Shown one piece after another: positions 1 through 57,961 of a stretch of DNA of 62,270 nt. A program made the position numbers and the translations under genes. The stretch is from an uncultured Bdellovibrionales bacterium. Its GTDB lineage: Bacteria; Patescibacteriota; Minisyncoccia; Moranbacterales; UBA2206. The notes beneath the pieces were generated by a model. The model was not told where the DNA came from. It ran no database searches and worked only from the letters and a program-made list of their open reading frames with translations. The stretch lies in assembly GCA_964538685.1 (NCBI GenBank), contig CAZIFD010000004.1:1-62270 (forward strand), in the 5' to 3' direction. How positions within the stretch are numbered: position 1 is the first letter of the stretch; every line of letters starts with the position of its first letter.

Positions 1-50
1 ATTTTTCAGAAATCTTTGGTAAAGTAAGTTCGAGCTTGGTTGTATAGATA

Positions 51-187
51 CACCACTACAAAACAAAACGGCTTTTTGAGAGCCAATTCGTGGGCGGCAC
101 GCAGTGCCGCCCATTGGTTTTTGTGCGGGGAATCCTTGCCGCTCGGCGCGCTGACGCGCGCCTCGCGGTTGGCCAAAACGAGGTTCG
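51..187 (-). repeat. Left arm of perfect 137 bp inverted repeat bracketing LSR-1 (partner 1777-1913)
   Basis: caccactaca...gaggttcg (51-187) is the exact reverse complement of 1777-1913; identity stops 1 nt into the tRNA-Lys acceptor stem. Confidence 0.97.
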
Positions 188-247
188 CTCTTGTGCGATT
201 TTGAAATTCTGTCTGGTATTTGCTTTGCCCATAAAAAGAATTTTTGC
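188..247. other. Leader tiled by four short segments complementary to the LSR-1 CDS
   Basis: 188-202 rc=1716-1730; 203-214 rc=1031-1042; 216-231 rc=761-776 (1 mismatch); 233-247 rc=392-406. Confidence 0.9.
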
Positions 248-371
248 TATACTGAAGTTGCGACCAACCGAAACGAGAAGCCTTTTCTAGTGGCCGTCTC
301 GGAATCAATCAAGGTTTCTCTTGGTTGGTCGCACCGGGGCGGCCATTTGAGTTTTAACTTTTTCAAAAAAT

Positions 372-1973
372 ATGGACAAAGCAATACAACCGCAAAAATT
401 CTTTTTGTACGCCCGCAAGTCCACAGATGTGGAAGATAAACAAGTGAGGTCTATTGAAGATCAAGTCGCAGAATTGCGCGCCTATGCCAAACAAGAGGGG
501 TTAAATATTGTTGAAGTTTTTATCGAAAAGCAATCGGCCAAAATTCCAGGCAGGCCAATTTTTAACGAGATGTTGGATAGAATAGAGAAAGGTGAGGCAA
601 ACGGAATTTTGGCTTGGCACGCAGACAGATTGGCGCGCAATTCTGTGGACGGCGGGCGTATTATTTATCTTTTAGATACCGGAAAACTTGCGGCCCTGAA
701 GTTTCCAACTTTATGGTTTGAAAACACACCGCAAGGAAAATTTATGCTGAACATTATCTTTGGACAAAGCAAATACTATGTTGATTCGCTTGCCGAAAAT
801 ACAAAAAGAGGTTTACGCCAAAAAGTGAAACGCGGTGAATATCCGGGAGTTGCGCCTATTGGCTACATAAACGATGTTCGTACCAAATCAATCATCTTGG
901 ACAAAAAGAAAGCTCCAATTATTCGCCGCGCTTTTGAACTTTATTCACAGGGTGATAAACGGCTCGAAGATATCGCCGACTTTTTGGCACAAAACGGAAT
1001 CTTATCTTCCGGCGGCAAGCGAATCAAACGAGACAGAATTTCTTTTATCCTTTCAAATCCTTTTTACATCGGGTTGTTTAGATATGCCGGTGAAATTTAC
1101 GAAGGCAAACATCAGCCAATAGTCTCAAAGAAAACTTTTGATAAGGTGCAGGAAGTTTTGAAGCAAAGAGGACGACCGCGCCACAAAACCAAAAATCAAC
1201 CACAGCCATTTTGCGGTCTTTTGCGTTGCGGAACTTGCGGCATGATGATAACCGGCGAATACAGAATAAAAAGGCAGAAAAACGGCAATGTCCACGAATA
1301 TGTTTATTACCACTGCACCAAAAAGCGAAAAGATTTCAAATGCCCCGAGCCCTGTATCCGCCAAGAAGAATTAGATCGTCAGTTATCCTCTCTGCTTCAA
1401 AAATTTTCTTTGCCACCGGATTGGGCGGCGGAGATGAGAAAGATGTTGGAGAAAGACAAAGTGGAAGCCGCCCAATCCGCAACCGCTTTTGTTCAAGAAA
1501 CGCGGGAGAAAATCCGCACTATTCAAACGAAGCTCCAGCGACTTCTTGATGGCTATCTTGAACAAGACATTGAACGTGAAGTATATCTCACTGAAAAAGC
1601 CAAACTCCTTTCCGAAAAGAAGTCGCTGGAGGAGCAATCTTTCAATCTTGAACAAAAGCGGACTGGCTGGCTCGAACCGATGGCAGAATGGATAAAAGAG
1701 GCAGAAAACCTGCCTAAAATCGCACAAGAGAGCAACCTTTTTGCGAAAAAGGTTGCTTGCCGAACTTTGTTCGGCTCGAACCTCGTTTTGGCCAACCGCG
1801 AGGCGCGCGTCAGCGCGCCGAGCGGCAAGGATTCCCCGCACAAAAACCAATGGGCGGCACTGCGTGCCGCCCACGAATTGGCTCTCAAAAAGCCGTTTTG
1901 TTTTGTAGTGGTGCGCCCACCAGGACTCGAACCTGGGACCGTTTGCTTAAAAGGCAACTGCTCTACCAACTGA
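372..1973 (+). CDS. Large serine recombinase (resolvase + recombinase + Zn-ribbon + coiled coil), LSR-1
   Basis: YARKS catalytic Ser motif, DRLARN, CGTCG...YYHC zinc ribbon; last 19 codons are antisense tRNA-Lys (RPPGLEPGT...). Confidence 0.95.
   Translation: MDKAIQPQKFFLYARKSTDVEDKQVRSIEDQVAELRAYAKQEGLNIVEVFIEKQSAKIPGRPIFNEMLDRIEKGEANGILAWHADRLARNSVDGGRIIYLLDTGKLAALKFPTLWFENTPQGKFMLNIIFGQSKYYVDSLAENTKRGLRQKVKRGEYPGVAPIGYINDVRTKSIILDKKKAPIIRRAFELYSQGDKRLEDIADFLAQNGILSSGGKRIKRDRISFILSNPFYIGLFRYAGEIYEGKHQPIVSKKTFDKVQEVLKQRGRPRHKTKNQPQPFCGLLRCGTCGMMITGEYRIKRQKNGNVHEYVYYHCTKKRKDFKCPEPCIRQEELDRQLSSLLQKFSLPPDWAAEMRKMLEKDKVEAAQSATAFVQETREKIRTIQTKLQRLLDGYLEQDIEREVYLTEKAKLLSEKKSLEEQSFNLEQKRTGWLEPMAEWIKEAENLPKIAQESNLFAKKVACRTLFGSNLVLANREARVSAPSGKDSPHKNQWAALRAAHELALKKPFCFVVVRPPGLEPGTVCLKGNCSTN
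1777..1913 (+). repeat. Right arm of 137 bp inverted repeat, inside 3' end of LSR-1, ending at attL-like tRNA junction
   Basis: Exact reverse complement of 51-187; contains hairpins ggcgcgc-gtca-gcgcgcc and gggcggcac-tgc-gtgccgccc. Confidence 0.97.
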
Positions 1974-1984
1974 GCTATAGGCGC
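1909..1984 (-). tRNA. tRNA-Lys(TTT), with encoded CCA
   Basis: rc = GCGCCTA TA GCTC AGTTGGTA GAGC A GTTGC CTTTTAA GCAAA CGGTC CCAGG TTCGAGT CCTGG TGGGCGC A CCA; 76 nt cloverleaf. Confidence 0.96.
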
Positions 1985-48879: not shown

Positions 48880-48918
48880 ACTAACAATTTCATTAAAAAA
48901 CCTGCCTGATAGAAAAGT

Positions 48919-49019
48919 GTCGCATTTACTGAACGAAGCTCGAACCTTTTTTGAGCAACAAATTCTGCCGTGAACGGCAGAAACCCGCCCAGCGTCTCCG
49001 CCCGCCGATACTCGGCGAG
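48919..49019 (+). repeat. attR-like junction plus L segment; diverged inverted copy at 60296-60387
   Basis: Shared ctgaacgaagctcgaac and tccgcccgccga-a/tactcggcgag. Confidence 0.85.
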
Positions 49020-49102
49020 CAAAGCAAAACAATTTTCTTTCAATTTTTTATCGCCCGCCCGCCAAATTTTTCTTAAAAGGAATTGAAAATTGTTTTGCTT
49101 TG
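49020..49102 (+). repeat. 83 bp unit U (18 bp terminal inverted arms), copy 1
   Basis: caaagcaaaacaattttc-47 nt-gaaaattgttttgctttg; copies at 54903-54985 (identical, minus) and 60213-60295 (3 substitutions, minus). Confidence 0.95.
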
Positions 49103-49246
49103 ACGTCTTGATACCAAGACGGCGGAAACGCTTCGCTACGCCAATTTTATTTTTCGGGCGGGGCGGAAAAAAAGGGGGGGTCTGGGGGGAATTCCGCCCC
49201 GCCCTCTCTTTTCCGCTTTCACTTTTTTCGCTGGCGCTGGAGGCCG
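49020..49246 (+). repeat. Left arm of perfect 227 bp inverted repeat bounding cassette 1 (partner 54759-54985)
   Basis: Exact reverse complement, including homopolymer lengths A7, G7, G6. Confidence 0.95.
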
Positions 49247-49270
49247 TGCCAACTTCATTGGCGCGCCACC

Positions 49271-54610: not shown

Positions 54611-54758
54611 GTAATTTATCTTTCAGTAAATATCTATATTATTATGATACACAATTTTTATTTATTAGTAAATGGGAGTTCTTTGTCGTTGCCCGCGCAC
54701 GGGTGGGTTGGAGCAAGGGCAACATCCTTTTCGGCGGCGCATTTCGCTTTGCGAAATG

Positions 54759-54985
54759 CGGCCTCCAGCGCCAGCGAAAAAAGTGAAAGCGGAAAAGAGA
54801 GGGCGGGGCGGAATTCCCCCCAGACCCCCCCTTTTTTTCCGCCCCGCCCGAAAAATAAAATTGGCGTAGCGAAGCGTTTCCGCCGTCTTGGTATCAAGAC
54901 GTCAAAGCAAAACAATTTTCAATTCCTTTTAAGAAAAATTTGGCGGGCGGGCGATAAAAAATTGAAAGAAAATTGTTTTGCTTTG
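54759..54985 (-). repeat. Right arm of 227 bp inverted repeat of cassette 1 (includes U copy 2 at 54903-54985)
   Basis: Reverse complement of 49020-49246. Confidence 0.95.
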
Positions 54986-55118
54986 ATGTTTGGCTTAACG
55001 CCAAACGGCGGAAACGCTTCGCTTCGGCTCGGGCGTGGCGGAATTCCTCCCCCCAACCCCCTCCTTCCGCCACGCCCTCGCTCGGACTGCTCTTTTTTTC
55101 GGCGGAATTGGAGGCCGT
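54968..55118 (+). repeat. Left arm of perfect 151 bp inverted repeat bounding cassette 2 (partner 60080-60230)
   Basis: Exact reverse complement; diverged homolog of the cassette-1 arm. Confidence 0.95.
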
Positions 55119-55141
55119 GCCAATTTCATTGGCGCGCCGCC

Positions 55142-57961
55142 TCATTTCTGAATTAAATACTCCTCAAGTTTCTCAAGAATATTATCAACAGTCAATTGGT
55201 CTTTTGGCGAACAACCGACAATATGATCAATGTATTTATCTTTTTTCAATTCAGTCAAAATGTTCGCACTCTGATTTCCTTTGCCGGAATGGTGATAAAT
55301 TTGACCTGTGATAATTACATTGTATTTTGTTTGCCCTTTTTTCAATCCACCCAAGACATCGCTATTCCTGATTTTGGAATTGCCAAAAAACGCAACATCC
55401 CAATCAGTCGCTTTCAATCCGTATTTTGCGAAAAAACCTCTCAATTTTTCTCTGATTAAATCCTCGCCAACAACTTCGCCCAAAATACAAATATTGAACG
55501 GAGACGGAATTTTGATATTTTCGGCTTCTTCTTTCGCGCCAGCTTTCGGTTGAAATGCCAGAGCTTCTTTCAAACCGCCGATTGTCGCTTGCGCGTTTTG
55601 CAAATCAAGTTTCAAAATTTCATTTTCAAGTTTTTTGTCGTCGAGATTTTTAATAGCCTTTGTCAGCTCGCCCTCGTATAATTCAAGCAATTCCTGATCT
55701 TCTTTTGACTTTTCCGCCTGTTTTTCGGAAACAATTTTACGACTTTGGGTATATCTAACTAAATTTTCTTCAAATTGAGGTTTGAAACTTGCTAAATCTT
55801 GATTTTTTAGAGCGACAAAAAACTTGTAGTAATCAGACGGCGAAATAATGTAAAAATAAAAATTTTCTTTGCCTTTGTATTCTTTTTGATATTTTTTCCC
55901 TGCGTTTAATTTGAGCAAGTTTTCATTTTTGAAGTCTCGGTCATCTTTAATTTCAACAACAAGGGTGTCTTTTTTCGTTTTTATTACAAAATCAGGATAA
56001 AAAGCGTAATAACTGCCGTGGCTATTGCCGTTTTTCTTGTAGGCAATTCCAAAATACTTGCTTTCTGAAACGCCATTTTTAAACCACCACAAAACATCGT
56101 TGTCGGTCTTTTCCAGTTCATCAATAAATACTTTTTCGGGCTTGGACCATTGCTGTTTTCCGTTTTTATCTCGTTTTACAAAGTAAGGTTTCAAAACCGA
56201 TTTTTTGATAGTTTTGATTTCATCAAAATTTTCAAAAACGCTTATTATATCCGGCACTTGCCAATTTTCATTGGGGATAACTTCGTCTGCTTTTTCAGGC
56301 AACGATTTATATTTACCTTTTGCTGTTTCAATAAGTTCTATAAATTCACCTTTATTGACTGGATTCAAAACAATCGTTGCGATTTCGTCCTCGTTATCAA
56401 TTCCAAACGCTTTTTTGAAAAACGAACGCAAGCTTGATTTGATAATTTCAGTCGGGCGACCACCGCCAGTAAACGGAAAAGTTAGAGATTTTATAAATGC
56501 CGTGTATTCGGCGCAAACTTCCTCGCGGTCTCTTACAATTGCGCCTTTCTTTTGAAAATCAACGGCTTGCTTTTTATCAATTTCGGAAATTTGCCCCTCA
56601 AAACCAATATCTTTTTTGAAAACTATTTTGCCGATGTTGATTTTCTTTTCTTTGAATTTCAATTCATCGCCAGCTTGAAACAAACAATCCTTAAATTCAC
56701 CCGACAATCTAAATAATTCTCTTTTTCTTCTGATATGTTCGCTTGGCAGATAAATATCTTTATAAATCGTATTGTCGCGCACCATTTGATCTTTGCTGAC
56801 ATAATCCTTTGCTAAATCTTCAACAATTTCAAAATTATCAGAAGCCGTATAAACATAGCCGATATTCAAAGCGGGATAATTTTCGTAATGCTTTTGCTCT
56901 GGCATACGCATAATACGGCCAAGCGTTTGGATATTGAAAACATAATTTTCGGCGTTCCATTCCCGTTGAAGCAGTAAAATGCTGGCGCGTGGGCAATCCC
57001 AACCTTGTGCAATAGCTTCTTTGAATACTAAAACATCAACTCCGCTATCGTGATTTTCAAGGTAATCAAGATTTTTCTTTTTATCTTTTTCGGCAAGCCA
57101 AAGAGCAAGTTTTCCATTTTCAATCGTTATGCCGTCTTTGTTCAAAATTTCAATGATTTTGTCTTCCGGCTCTCTAATATCCGATTTCTTTTTCTTTGGT
57201 ATTTGGATTAAAAGCAAAGGATTTATATCGGTCTTGGCTTCTTCGTAAAGCCGTTTTAATTCCTTTCGTTTTTTCAACGCTTCACGAACAATGTCCTCGT
57301 TTGTCTGCACTCGGCCAAGTCCAGGATTTATCTGTATCCCTTCCTTAATCATTCCCTCGGCCACAACTTCGCTTAATTTGACGGTTATTTTGTGGTCATT
57401 GGTTACGCCCTCTTTTGGCGTGGCCGAAACTTCAATCGTCGATTTTGGGCTAATCATGTTGACGATTTCTTGCGACTTGCTTGTTTTTGCCGTTCTGTGG
57501 CTTTCGTCAATTATCAAAACAATGTTTCTGCCCTCGTCTCTCGTATTTTCGGCAACTTTGCTTAAATTCCAATCCTTTTCATTGTCGGACATAAAAAGCG
57601 AAATACCCTCTTTATTCAAAGAATCCCAGTTCACAAAAACAATCTGGTTTTGCTCAATTATATTGTTTTGAATTTCGTTAATTCCAATGCAATCAAGCAG
57701 TCGCTCATTTTCAAAATGCTTTTCCAGTTTTTCTTTTCTTTGTTCGTTTAGTGCGTTTACTGAAATCCAAACAAAAGCTAATTCCTTTTGACCGCCAAGC
57801 TCTTTTACTATTCGCGACATTGCTTCGGCAAGCATAATTGTTTTACCTGCGCCAGTTGGAGCTTGAAAAACAATCAATTTTGGGTCTTCATCTTCAATAT
57901 ACCCAACGGAAGTTGAGACAAGTTCTTTGATGTATTTTTTTTGATATGCTAAATCTTTCAT
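55142..57961 (-). CDS. Type III restriction enzyme Res subunit with C-terminal extension
   Basis: QAPTGAGKT, IIDESH, SATP, EAIAQGWD, QTLGRIMR, PD...VEIK nuclease; 4 nt overlap with mod. Confidence 0.9.
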   Translation of the reverse strand: MKDLAYQKKYIKELVSTSVGYIEDEDPKLIVFQAPTGAGKTIMLAEAMSRIVKELGGQKELAFVWISVNALNEQRKEKLEKHFENERLLDCIGINEIQNNIIEQNQIVFVNWDSLNKEGISLFMSDNEKDWNLSKVAENTRDEGRNIVLIIDESHRTAKTSKSQEIVNMISPKSTIEVSATPKEGVTNDHKITVKLSEVVAEGMIKEGIQINPGLGRVQTNEDIVREALKKRKELKRLYEEAKTDINPLLLIQIPKKKKSDIREPEDKIIEILNKDGITIENGKLALWLAEKDKKKNLDYLENHDSGVDVLVFKEAIAQGWDCPRASILLLQREWNAENYVFNIQTLGRIMRMPEQKHYENYPALNIGYVYTASDNFEIVEDLAKDYVSKDQMVRDNTIYKDIYLPSEHIRRKRELFRLSGEFKDCLFQAGDELKFKEKKINIGKIVFKKDIGFEGQISEIDKKQAVDFQKKGAIVRDREEVCAEYTAFIKSLTFPFTGGGRPTEIIKSSLRSFFKKAFGIDNEDEIATIVLNPVNKGEFIELIETAKGKYKSLPEKADEVIPNENWQVPDIISVFENFDEIKTIKKSVLKPYFVKRDKNGKQQWSKPEKVFIDELEKTDNDVLWWFKNGVSESKYFGIAYKKNGNSHGSYYAFYPDFVIKTKKDTLVVEIKDDRDFKNENLLKLNAGKKYQKEYKGKENFYFYIISPSDYYKFFVALKNQDLASFKPQFEENLVRYTQSRKIVSEKQAEKSKEDQELLELYEGELTKAIKNLDDKKLENEILKLDLQNAQATIGGLKEALAFQPKAGAKEEAENIKIPSPFNICILGEVVGEDLIREKLRGFFAKYGLKATDWDVAFFGNSKIRNSDVLGGLKKGQTKYNVIITGQIYHHSGKGNQSANILTELKKDKYIDHIVGCSPKDQLTVDNILEKLEEYLIQK

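What the first reader, a model, noticed from the sequence alone, without database searches (positions are those of the whole stretch)
761..1782. Clamp targets and repeat boundaries fall on homologous codons in two diverged recombinases
Seen: LSR-1 clamp at FGQSKY versus LSR-2 clamp at VAFGQ (overlapping homologous sites). LSR-1 clamp at KIAQE versus LSR-2 clamp at EKLAL (same register after the W[LI]EP motif). Both long repeats start at the second base of the S/T codon in G-[ST]-N (tCGAACC, aCGAACC). The DNA sequences differ, yet each leader matches only its own gene. Inference: this is whole-helix covariation, implying selection or a copying mechanism rather than random decay of a duplicate.
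Basis: partly seen in the sequence, partly recalled or inferred. Interest (0 to 1): 0.85.

Follow-up and report, generated by a model that had tools for sequence, protein, structure and literature searches.

The report
Recombinase leaders mirror their own genes
Two diverged recombinase genes, each parked against the end of a tRNA gene, carry upstream an inverted copy of their own 3' tail plus four short stretches complementary to their own coding sequence; about 80 related elements share this layout and it changes together with each gene, which points to a base-pairing control not described for this enzyme family.

Summary
Each large serine recombinase (LSR) gene in the window is flanked by a perfect inverted repeat (137 nt and 158 nt). 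The inner edge of the repeat is the second base of the S/T codon of G-[ST]-N. Each leader also holds four exact matches of 11-15 nt complementary to its own gene (0 of 1000 shuffles) and none to the other gene.

In 160 related loci from Patescibacteria, 80 of 90 with enough flank have the repeat. The short blocks cluster at a few homologous codons, always collinear. The K[IL]A helix shows 3-4 Watson-Crick pair types at five positions, with sharp edges.

The context changes the reading. These are tRNA-3'-end-abutting LSR elements whose reading frame has no stop codon of its own. The upstream arm is part of a mirror image of the tRNA junction. The blocks lie upstream of the likely promoter -10 box, so they are probably not in the main mRNA.

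Best guess (about 0.4): upstream or read-through RNA carrying these blocks pairs with the recombinase message and silences it, as in fold-back inhibition. DNA-level explanations are not excluded. I found no published description.

The parts
27..50 (+). LSR-1 left flank: tRNA T-loop mimic (AAGTTCGAGCTT + 13 nt) abutting the upstream repeat arm
   Evidence: A GTTYDR motif sits at a fixed 23 nt from the upstream arm in 72/86 loci. It mirrors the tRNA T-loop, which sits 19 nt beyond the downstream arm.
51..187 (+). LSR-1 upstream repeat arm (IR-L): reverse complement of the gene's 3' tail plus the tRNA's CACCA end. Contains an inward terminator-like hairpin at 90-124.
188..247 (+). LSR-1 antisense blocks, nearly contiguous: K 188-202, R 203-214, F 216-227(232), N 233-247
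225..253 (+). Promoter-like site TTGCCC-17-TGcTATACT, built from the F block (-35) and the N block (spacer)
   Evidence: A -10 box at the same place in relatives.
264..350 (+). Conserved pseudoknot-like 5'-UTR motif: P1 GCGACCAACC/GGTTGGTCGC; loop GTGGCCGTCTCGG pairs with CCGGGGCGGCCA
   Evidence: Read by eye from sequences of 18 loci in several clades, where the stems change together. Not counted formally.
372..1973 (+). LSR-1 reading frame. Conserved protein ends near FGSNL (1781). The frame stays open through the repeat and stops inside the antisense of tRNA-Lys.
392..406 (+). Target N' (codons 8-12, QKFFL)
761..778 (+). Target F' (FGQSKY; exact match 765-776)
1031..1042 (+). Target R' (RDRIS)
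1716..1730 (+). Target K' (KIAQE)
1777..1913 (+). LSR-1 downstream repeat arm (IR-R): C-terminal tail coding. On the minus strand it is the trailer and terminator of tRNA-Lys.
1909..1984 (-). tRNA-Lys(ttt). Its 3' CACCA is the outer 5 nt of IR-R.
59685..59900 (-). XRE-type HTH gene divergent from the LSR-2 leader
   Evidence: The same neighbour occurs in L161, L163, L164 and L166.
59891..59919 (+). Promoter-like site TTGACG-17-TATAAT pointing into the leader
   Evidence: 11/12 match.
59996..60390 (+). GC-rich structured region ending in the T-loop mimic (60360-60390)
60384..60541 (+). LSR-2 upstream repeat arm
60575..60667 (+). LSR-2 antisense blocks: E 60575-60588, K 60613-60623, G 60624-60637, F 60654-60667, separated by small local hairpins
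60695..62269 (+). LSR-2 reading frame (runs off the window). Targets at 61064-61077, 61114-61127, 62004-62014 and 62049-62062.
62064..62221 (+). LSR-2 downstream repeat arm
62216..62270 (-). 3' part of a tRNA gene cut by the window end (…GGTTCAATTCCGGGCAGCCCGACCA)
   Evidence: Sequence read. Complete tRNAs sit at this place in relatives.

Best explanation
What it is (shown). Each gene is the recombinase of a small element of Patescibacteria that sits with its 3' end against the CCA end of a convergent tRNA gene.
- The reading frame has no stop codon of its own.
- Its last ~45 codons, together with the tRNA's NCCA, are repeated in inverted orientation upstream of the gene, next to a conserved imitation of a tRNA T-loop. 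The upstream side is therefore a mirror image of the tRNA junction.
- Directly inside the upstream arm lie 3-5 short blocks complementary to distant parts of the same coding sequence, in mirror order.

How it works (inferred). The blocks and the upstream arm act by base pairing with the recombinase message.
- Any plus-strand RNA that enters from upstream carries up to ~200 nt of antisense sequence. This could be the GC-rich leader RNA reading through the arm, or, in LSR-2, the only evident transcript from the promoter at 59891.
- That RNA would pair with the message at nested sites: codons 8-13, FGQSKY, RDRIS, KIAQE and the 3' tail.
- This would close the message, block its translation or expose it to double-strand-specific RNases.
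- Transcripts from the gene's own -10 box, which lies just downstream of the blocks in the LSR-1 type, would be free. This is the logic of fold-back inhibition in IS10/IS50 and of the hok mRNA.
- Complementarity of the short helices would be kept by compensatory selection. The long arms are probably also homogenised by gene conversion.
For: - Non-chance, own-gene-specific complementarity in both genes.
- Family-wide excess of complementary over direct or reversed matches: 97 vs 10 vs 3.
- Clustering at four homologous sites and collinearity.
- Compensatory changes with sharp helix edges at K, and at K, G and E in the LSR-2 clade.
- Own vs non-own fit.
- Patches of 11-18 nt separated by insertions and deletions are too short for RecA-type conversion [inference], so pairing itself must be selected.
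- Lower synonymous diversity at targets.
- Mismatches inside well-formed blocks lean to G.U on the plus strand: 40 vs 24.
- A strong upstream promoter and no terminator before LSR-2.
- Local hairpins between LSR-2-clade blocks keep their structure with different sequences.
- A hairpin plus T-run is inserted between the R and F blocks in L034, L148 and L157, as expected if RNA is made across K and R.
Against: - In the LSR-1 type the blocks lie between a good terminator-like hairpin in the upstream arm (90-124) and the -10 box, so little RNA may contain them.
- The N helix covers codons 8-12, not the ribosome-binding site or the start codon.
- Mismatches in the long repeat show no wobble bias: G.U 51, A.C 46, others 106. 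The bias in the blocks is weak (about p = 0.06 by my own binomial estimate; loci are not independent).
- The blocks are absent from clades of 50-60% identity that still have the repeat.
- K pairing decays together with repeat identity, 0.95 to 0.86.
- The mirror symmetry extends into the untranslated tRNA-like flank, which looks like a DNA duplication.
- There are no expression data.
Confidence: 0.4

Rival explanations
1. DNA relic kept alike by copying. An ancestral inverted duplication of the right end (tRNA junction plus part of the gene) was whittled down by deletions. The long arms are kept identical by gene conversion. The short blocks survive because they now serve as promoter parts (-35, spacer, upstream region), and their match to the gene is a by-product of occasional conversion or of recent spread of young copies.
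For: - The mirror order of blocks, and the mirror of the tRNA T-loop beyond the repeat.
- The F and N blocks coincide with the -35 and spacer of the promoter-like site.
- Mismatches in the repeat look neutral, with half being transversion-type.
- Block pairing declines with repeat identity, as expected for ageing copies.
- In L036 the K block fits another subclade's gene rather than its own.
Against: - Block edges are homologous across subclades, so the blocks are old. Yet K, G and E differ at up to 5 of 15 positions between subclades and still match their own gene.
- No known conversion process copies 11-18 nt patches that lie 46-900 nt apart in the donor and abut each other in the recipient [inference].
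- The LSR-2 clade keeps block E across a 33-60 nt insertion.
Confidence: 0.27
2. Pairing acts in DNA rather than RNA. One option is a folded single strand during replication or transfer that brings the two ends together for the recombinase, as with folded attC or CTX-phage sites. Another is the message hybridising to its own promoter DNA (an R-loop over the -35 and spacer) as feedback.
For: - Strict Watson-Crick complementarity with little wobble.
- The blocks sit on the promoter.
- The repeat arms are GC-rich and contain internal palindromes.
- The arrangement is a continuous ~200-nt rail on the leader side.
Against: - Serine recombinases are only known to act on double-stranded sites [established knowledge].
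- No flipped or excised forms were seen in the ~60 loci scanned for tRNAs or in the flank read-outs.
- There is no precedent for promoter R-loop feedback of this kind.
- Nothing here tests it directly.
Confidence: 0.15
3. Invertible switch. The recombinase, or homologous recombination, flips the segment between the two arms, turning its own gene relative to outside promoters.
For: - Perfect inverted arms flank the gene and its leader.
- Relatives are often auto-annotated as 'DNA invertase Pin-like'.
- Contigs frequently break at the arms.
Against: - In the ~60 loci scanned, nearly every one has the gene's 3' end, never the leader, facing the tRNA. No right flank looks like the T-loop mimic.
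- Inversion would not explain the short blocks.
Confidence: 0.08
4. Chance or assembly artefact.
For: - One locus (L106) has a 697-nt 'repeat' that is a contig-end artefact.
- Assemblers can collapse near-identical repeats, which inflates the share of 100% identities.
Against: - 80 of 90 loci from many assemblers and studies have the repeat, and 52 of them are imperfect.
- LSR-2's upstream arm lies 60 kb inside the contig.
- Shuffle tests.
Confidence: 0.02

Closest known systems
Fold-back inhibition of transposase messages (IS10/IS50) and the fbi element of hok mRNA [from my knowledge of the literature; the paper searches returned no description of this case]
   Same: - Sequence just upstream of the element's own transcription start is complementary to the start of the coding region, so only transcripts entering from outside fold back and are silenced.
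- The hok mRNA pairs its 5' end with its 3' end.
- Pairing is kept by compensatory change.
   Different: - Here there are 4-5 nested helices spread over 1.5 kb plus a 137-158-bp end-to-end duplex.
- The ribosome-binding site itself is not covered.
- The enzyme is a large serine recombinase.
- Nothing has been tested experimentally.
Large serine recombinases of integrative elements (A118 integrase, SPbeta SprA/YokA, CcrA/B, XisF)
   Same: Domain set Resolvase + Recombinase + zinc ribbon. Distant sequence matches to SprA, A118, CcrB and XisF. Sits at a junction with a host gene.
   Different: - All NCBIfam scores are far below the family cut-offs.
- Abuts the 3' end of tRNA genes of many identities.
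- The reading frame lacks its own stop codon.
- The junction is mirrored upstream, with long inverted arms and own-gene antisense blocks.
tRNA-gene genomic islands (Islander-type, tycheposons)
   Same: Recombinase gene next to a tRNA gene that stays intact. Accessory genes (XRE regulator, methyltransferase, radical-SAM genes) lie on the other side.
   Different: - Those mostly use tyrosine integrases and leave a direct repeat of the tRNA 3' fragment at the far end.
- Here no direct copy of the tRNA end is in the window. The tRNA-like fragment is inverted and family-conserved rather than target-derived.
Hin/Gin-type invertible segments
   Same: A serine recombinase gene lying between inverted repeats. 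Cis-acting sites lie inside the recombinase coding sequence (the enhancer in hin/gin).
   Different: Those have short 26-bp sites, a small recombinase, and both orientations occur. Here only one orientation is seen, and the gene-internal sites are defined by complementarity, not by protein binding.
IS110 bridge RNA / seekRNA
   Same: A structured non-coding leader upstream of a recombinase gene, with segments complementary to the element's own DNA.
   Different: A different enzyme class (DEDD vs serine). Bridge RNA loops match the target and the element ends over ~10 nt, whereas here the matches are to the recombinase's own coding sequence and 3' tail. No evidence of guiding.

Membership tests
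Large serine recombinase | N-terminal resolvase catalytic domain with the serine motif, recombinase domain, zinc-ribbon domain | tested here: met
   Pfam PF00239, PF07508 and PF13408 are above their cut-offs in both proteins. YARKST with S17 is nearly invariant.
Large serine recombinase | Catalyses integration or excision between short att sites | not testable with these tools
   Only integrated copies were seen. No circular or empty sites were recovered.
tRNA-integrating genomic island | Recombinase adjacent to an intact tRNA gene | tested here: met
   tRNA-Lys 1909-1984. A convergent tRNA abuts the gene in nearly all ~60 loci scanned.
tRNA-integrating genomic island | Direct repeat of the tRNA 3' fragment marking the far end | tested here: not met
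   No second copy of the LSR-2 tRNA end within 62 kb at up to 3 mismatches. For LSR-1 the contig ends 50 nt left of the repeat, so this cannot be judged.
Insertion sequence with terminal inverted repeats | The inverted repeats are the termini of the mobile unit | tested here: inconclusive
   The right arm ends at the tRNA. Family-wide conservation continues 300-380 nt left of the left arm, so the left arm is probably internal.
Insertion sequence with terminal inverted repeats | Target-site duplication | not tested
   No empty sites were available.
Invertible DNA switch | Both orientations present in populations | tested here: not met
   Only one orientation in the ~60 loci scanned for tRNAs and in the flank read-outs.
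Fold-back / cis-antisense translational control | Complementary segment located upstream of the element's own transcription start | tested here: inconclusive
   For the LSR-1 type this is met by prediction only: -10 box and 5'-UTR motif lie downstream of the blocks. For LSR-2 no internal promoter is predicted.
Fold-back / cis-antisense translational control | Pairing covers the translation initiation region | tested here: not met
   The nearest helix covers nt +21 to +35 of the coding sequence (392-406), not the ribosome-binding site or the ATG at 372.
Fold-back / cis-antisense translational control | Pairing conserved through compensatory change | tested here: met
   K helix. LSR-2 clade K, G and E blocks.
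IS110-type bridge RNA system | DEDD (RuvC-like) recombinase with a leader RNA matching the target and the element ends | tested here: not met
   The enzyme is a serine recombinase. The matches are to its own coding sequence.

The most novel reading that the evidence does not exclude
The leader and its upstream GC-rich, tRNA-like RNA are not just a brake. They would form a nucleic-acid 'staple' that physically gathers five distant parts of the element (as RNA:DNA or folded DNA) and takes part in the recombinase's reaction or in regenerating the mirror copy. That would make this a serine-recombinase element that uses programmed base pairing with its own gene, with the tRNA-end mimic standing in for the target.
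Probability: 0.1. Interest if true: 0.92.

Novelty: new variant of a known kind. Interest (0 to 1): 0.72.

Why it matters
- Large serine recombinases are widely mined as genome-integration tools, and their regulation in nature is poorly known.
- This is a very large family (each of the two searches returned over 6,500 database proteins at its E-value cut-off) from the little-studied Patescibacteria.
- It combines several unusual traits: insertion against the CCA end of many different tRNA genes, a reading frame closed only by host DNA, a mirrored junction, and a leader that co-evolves with short stretches of its own coding sequence.
- If the pairing is regulatory, it is the most elaborate fold-back control yet seen for a mobile-element enzyme, and it can be tested directly with reporter fusions.
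- If the pairing acts in DNA, it would be a new principle for this enzyme class.
- The neighbouring structured RNAs are also undescribed candidates (no Rfam match).

Tried and rejected
- Minus-strand mini-protein sharing the recombinase tail (ORF 6-308). In relatives the frame upstream of the arm usually closes within 5-20 codons and mostly has no start codon. The K and R blocks are read out of frame. Rejected.
- Known RNA families. No Rfam hit at gathering or relaxed thresholds, other than the tRNAs.
- Phage origin. No relatives of LSR-2 in the viral contig collection.
- Classical attL with a direct tRNA fragment. Not found.
- G.U versus A.C asymmetry as a test of RNA versus DNA. Flat in the long repeat and only a weak plus-strand lean in the blocks. 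Not decisive.
- Block pairing versus repeat identity. Both decline together, which does not separate the hypotheses.
- Synonymous-site test. Significant, but other windows (residues 343-368, 427-441) are as constrained or more so, and AT-rich codon bias confounds it.
- Diversity-generating retroelement or template/variable-repeat idea. The arms are inverted and identical. I did not specifically search the window for a reverse transcriptase; none turned up among the ORFs I scanned. Not pursued.
- Literature searches found no description of this architecture.
Full report
**1. The observation**

The window is a whole 62,270-bp contig. It looks like a Patescibacteria (CPR) chromosome, with dnaK, dnaJ and grpE-type genes nearby. 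It begins and ends with a large serine recombinase (LSR) gene.
- LSR-1 is at 372-1973 and LSR-2 at 60695 to beyond 62269.
- Both have Resolvase, Recombinase and zinc-ribbon domains.
- They are 45% identical. KIAQES aligns with KLALSN, and GSN with GTN.

Each gene is flanked by a perfect inverted repeat:
- LSR-1: 51-187 / 1777-1913 (137 nt).
- LSR-2: 60384-60541 / 62064-62221 (158 nt).

In both, the inner edge is the second base of the S/T codon of G-[ST]-N, followed by CGAACC.

Each leader has four exact complementary matches of 11-15 nt to its own gene. None of 1000 dinucleotide shuffles gives four. There are no same-strand matches to the own gene, and neither leader has a complementary match to the other gene.

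In both genes they are collinear with the gene in mirror order. In LSR-1 they abut each other and the repeat: 188-202, 203-214, 216-227 and 233-247.

**2. It is a family trait**

LSR-1 has over 7,800 database relatives at E <= 1e-20 and LSR-2 over 6,500 at E <= 1e-60. Those that carry names are mostly annotated as Patescibacteria lineages. I fetched 80 genome loci, 80 metagenome loci and 8 LSR-2-clade loci.

The long repeat:
- Of 90 loci with enough flank, 80 have an inverted repeat of 66-304 nt (median 137) between the leader and the gene's 3' end. A 697-nt case, L106, is a contig-end artefact.
- Identity is 100% in 28 loci, 98-99.9% in 17, 90-98% in 21 and below 90% in 14.

The short blocks:
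- Complementary leader-to-own-gene matches of 11 nt or more number 97, against 10 for same-strand and 3 for reversed controls.
- They pile up at LSR-1 residues 8-13 (N), 130-136 (F), 219-224 (R) and 448-454 (K).
- In the LSR-2 clade the blocks are at QVAFGQ, KRGIR, EKLA[LS]S and [AV]EKIG.
The other blocks differ.

**3. Covariation**

On an alignment of 89 distinct leaders, made without reference to the genes, the K helix is 15 bp long.
- 60-82 of about 85 sequences are paired at each position.
- There are 3-4 Watson-Crick pair types at five positions.
- Pairing drops to background one base outside the block.

Leaders fit their own gene better than other genes: K 0.89 vs 0.72, R 0.82 vs 0.60. 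A synonymous ATT/ATC difference between L023 and L038 is matched by A/G in the leader. In the LSR-2 clade the K, G and E blocks change with their own codons.

The F, R and N blocks hardly vary, so they say little either way. Target codons have lower synonymous diversity than other conserved codons (0.18 vs 0.33, p = 0.002). Other windows are equally constrained, and codon bias confounds the test.

Because block edges are homologous across subclades, the blocks are old. Because they still match their own diverged genes, either pairing is selected or something copies them.

**4. What the thing is**

- *tRNA junction.* In nearly every locus the gene's 3' end abuts the CCA end of a convergent tRNA gene of almost any identity: Gly, Val, Lys, Glu, Arg, Thr, Leu, Phe, Cys, Ile, Tyr. 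The outer 5-6 nt of the repeat are the tRNA's NCCA.
- *No own stop codon.* The reading frame stays open through the whole repeat in 96 of 97 loci (33-49 of 97 for other frames). It stops a median of 61 nt further on, inside the antisense of the tRNA.
- *Mirrored junction.* Left of the upstream arm, 72 of 86 loci have a T-loop-like GTTYDR motif at a fixed 23 nt. It mirrors the real T-loop, which lies 19 nt beyond the downstream arm. The upstream side is thus a mirror image of the tRNA junction.
- *Upstream GC-rich region.* Family-wide similarity continues 300-380 nt further left and then stops. This GC-rich region contains a hairpin, GGCGGAA-[G-rich loop]-TTCCGCC, whose stem shows GC-to-AU compensations. 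It has no Rfam match.
- *Neighbours.* An XRE-type regulator gene often lies divergently upstream, followed by accessory genes.
- *Terminators.* In LSR-1 each repeat arm carries the same inward-facing terminator-like hairpin, at 90-124 on the plus strand and 1874-1840 on the minus strand. The element therefore supplies the terminator for tRNA-Lys and for whatever enters from the left.

**5. Where the blocks sit relative to transcription**

In LSR-1 and many relatives the N block is followed by a -10 box (TGcTATAAT or TATACT). Then comes a conserved 5'-UTR motif of about 100 nt whose stems change together between clades. The F block supplies a -35-like TTGCCC.

The blocks are therefore upstream of the likely start of the main message and downstream of the arm's terminator. 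This contradicts a simple '5'-UTR clamp'.

In LSR-2 the only good promoter (TTGACG-17-TATAAT, 59891-59919) lies upstream of the whole leader, and no terminator intervenes. There the blocks would be transcribed.

**6. RNA or DNA?**

- Mismatches in the long repeat: G.U 51, A.C 46, other 106. This is no wobble signature, but single mismatches in a 137-bp duplex would be nearly neutral.
- Mismatches in well-formed short blocks: G.U 40, A.C 24, other 53. This is a weak lean to the plus strand.
- K pairing falls from 0.95 to 0.86 as repeat identity falls from 100% to about 82%, as expected for ageing copies under any model.
- No locus shows the flipped orientation, so an inversion switch is unlikely.
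- A minus-strand mini-protein is not conserved.

**7. Best explanation and rivals**

I favour, at about 0.4, antisense or fold-back control. RNA entering from upstream carries the arm and the blocks and pairs with the recombinase message at nested sites, silencing it. Transcripts from the gene's own promoter escape. This works like fold-back inhibition in IS10/IS50 and the hok mRNA, but with many more helices and without covering the ribosome-binding site.

The rivals are:
- A DNA relic of an inverted duplication, kept alike by conversion and reused as a promoter (about 0.27). It is weakened by the lack of any mechanism that could copy 11-18-nt patches.
- Pairing in DNA, as a folded single strand or a promoter R-loop (about 0.15).
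- An inversion switch (about 0.08).
- An artefact (about 0.02).

**8. Comparison with known systems, and novelty**

The proteins are LSRs by domain content but score far below all curated subfamily cut-offs. The nearest solved relatives are SprA and A118 integrase. The elements resemble tRNA-gene islands but lack the direct tRNA fragment. They resemble insertion sequences with terminal repeats, but the left arm is internal. Searches of the paper library found no description of this architecture.

I rate it a new variant of known kinds: an LSR integrative element with fold-back-type control. The mechanism is unresolved.

**9. Caveats**

- All sequences are metagenome assemblies.
- Perfect identities may be inflated by repeat collapse.
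- Loci are phylogenetically related, so counts are not independent.
- Promoters and terminators are consensus predictions only.
- The pseudoknot was read by eye, not counted formally.

Noticed in passing
window 372-1973; 96 of 97 related loci: The recombinase reading frame has no stop codon of its own. It stays open through the whole downstream repeat arm and ends a median of 61 nt further on, inside the antisense strand of the tRNA gene. The protein's C-terminus therefore depends on what the element is joined to.
   Followed up: partly
window 27-50 and 60360-60390; also 48916-48946 (-): A conserved imitation of a tRNA T-loop plus NCCA lies at a fixed 23 nt left of the upstream arm in 72/86 loci. 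It mirrors the real tRNA junction. One copy, at 48.9 kb, stands without a recombinase.
   Followed up: partly
window 59996-60359; 48919-49270 (-); 54674-55145: A GC-rich, modular repeat of about 300-400 nt occurs in three copies in an AT-rich genome. It contains a covarying hairpin with a G-rich loop (GGCGGAA…GGGGGGTGTGGGGGG…TTCCGCC). It has no Rfam match and is conserved upstream of recombinases of both clades. It is a candidate new structured RNA.
   Followed up: partly
window 49020-49246/54759-54985 and 54968-55118/60080-60230: Two further perfect inverted repeats (227 and 151 nt), made of the GC-rich element, bracket two accessory segments of about 5 kb. One holds radical-SAM genes; the other holds a methyltransferase plus a 939-aa protein and an XRE gene. 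With the LSR-2 repeat they form a chain of inverted repeats.
   Followed up: no
window ~264-350; same position in L005, L006, L009, L013, L014, L029, L034, L056, L059, L062, L064, L071, L073, L077: A conserved 5'-UTR motif follows directly after a -10 box. It is a long hairpin (P1 GCGACCAACC/GGTTGGTCGC) whose loop (GTGGCCGTCTCGG) is complementary to the sequence just 3' of the hairpin (CCGGGGCGGCCA), making a pseudoknot. The stems change together between clades. No Rfam match.
   Followed up: partly
window 90-124 (+) and 1874-1840 (-): Identical inward-facing terminator-like hairpins in the two repeat arms. The right one would terminate tRNA-Lys, whose promoter-like site is at 2050-2023.
   Followed up: no
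LSR-1 residues 343-368, 427-441, 449-470: Windows of very low synonymous diversity outside the four blocks. These may be further nucleic-acid-level constraints within the gene.
   Followed up: no
L034, L148, L157 leaders; L148:981-1284/2876-3179; L036: A GC hairpin plus T-run is inserted between the R and F blocks in three loci. In L148 the repeat is 304 nt and reaches about 165 nt beyond the usual 137-nt arm, into where the tRNA gene should lie (not checked with a tRNA scan). In L036 the K block fits another subclade's gene rather than its own, so it may be a recombinant.
   Followed up: no
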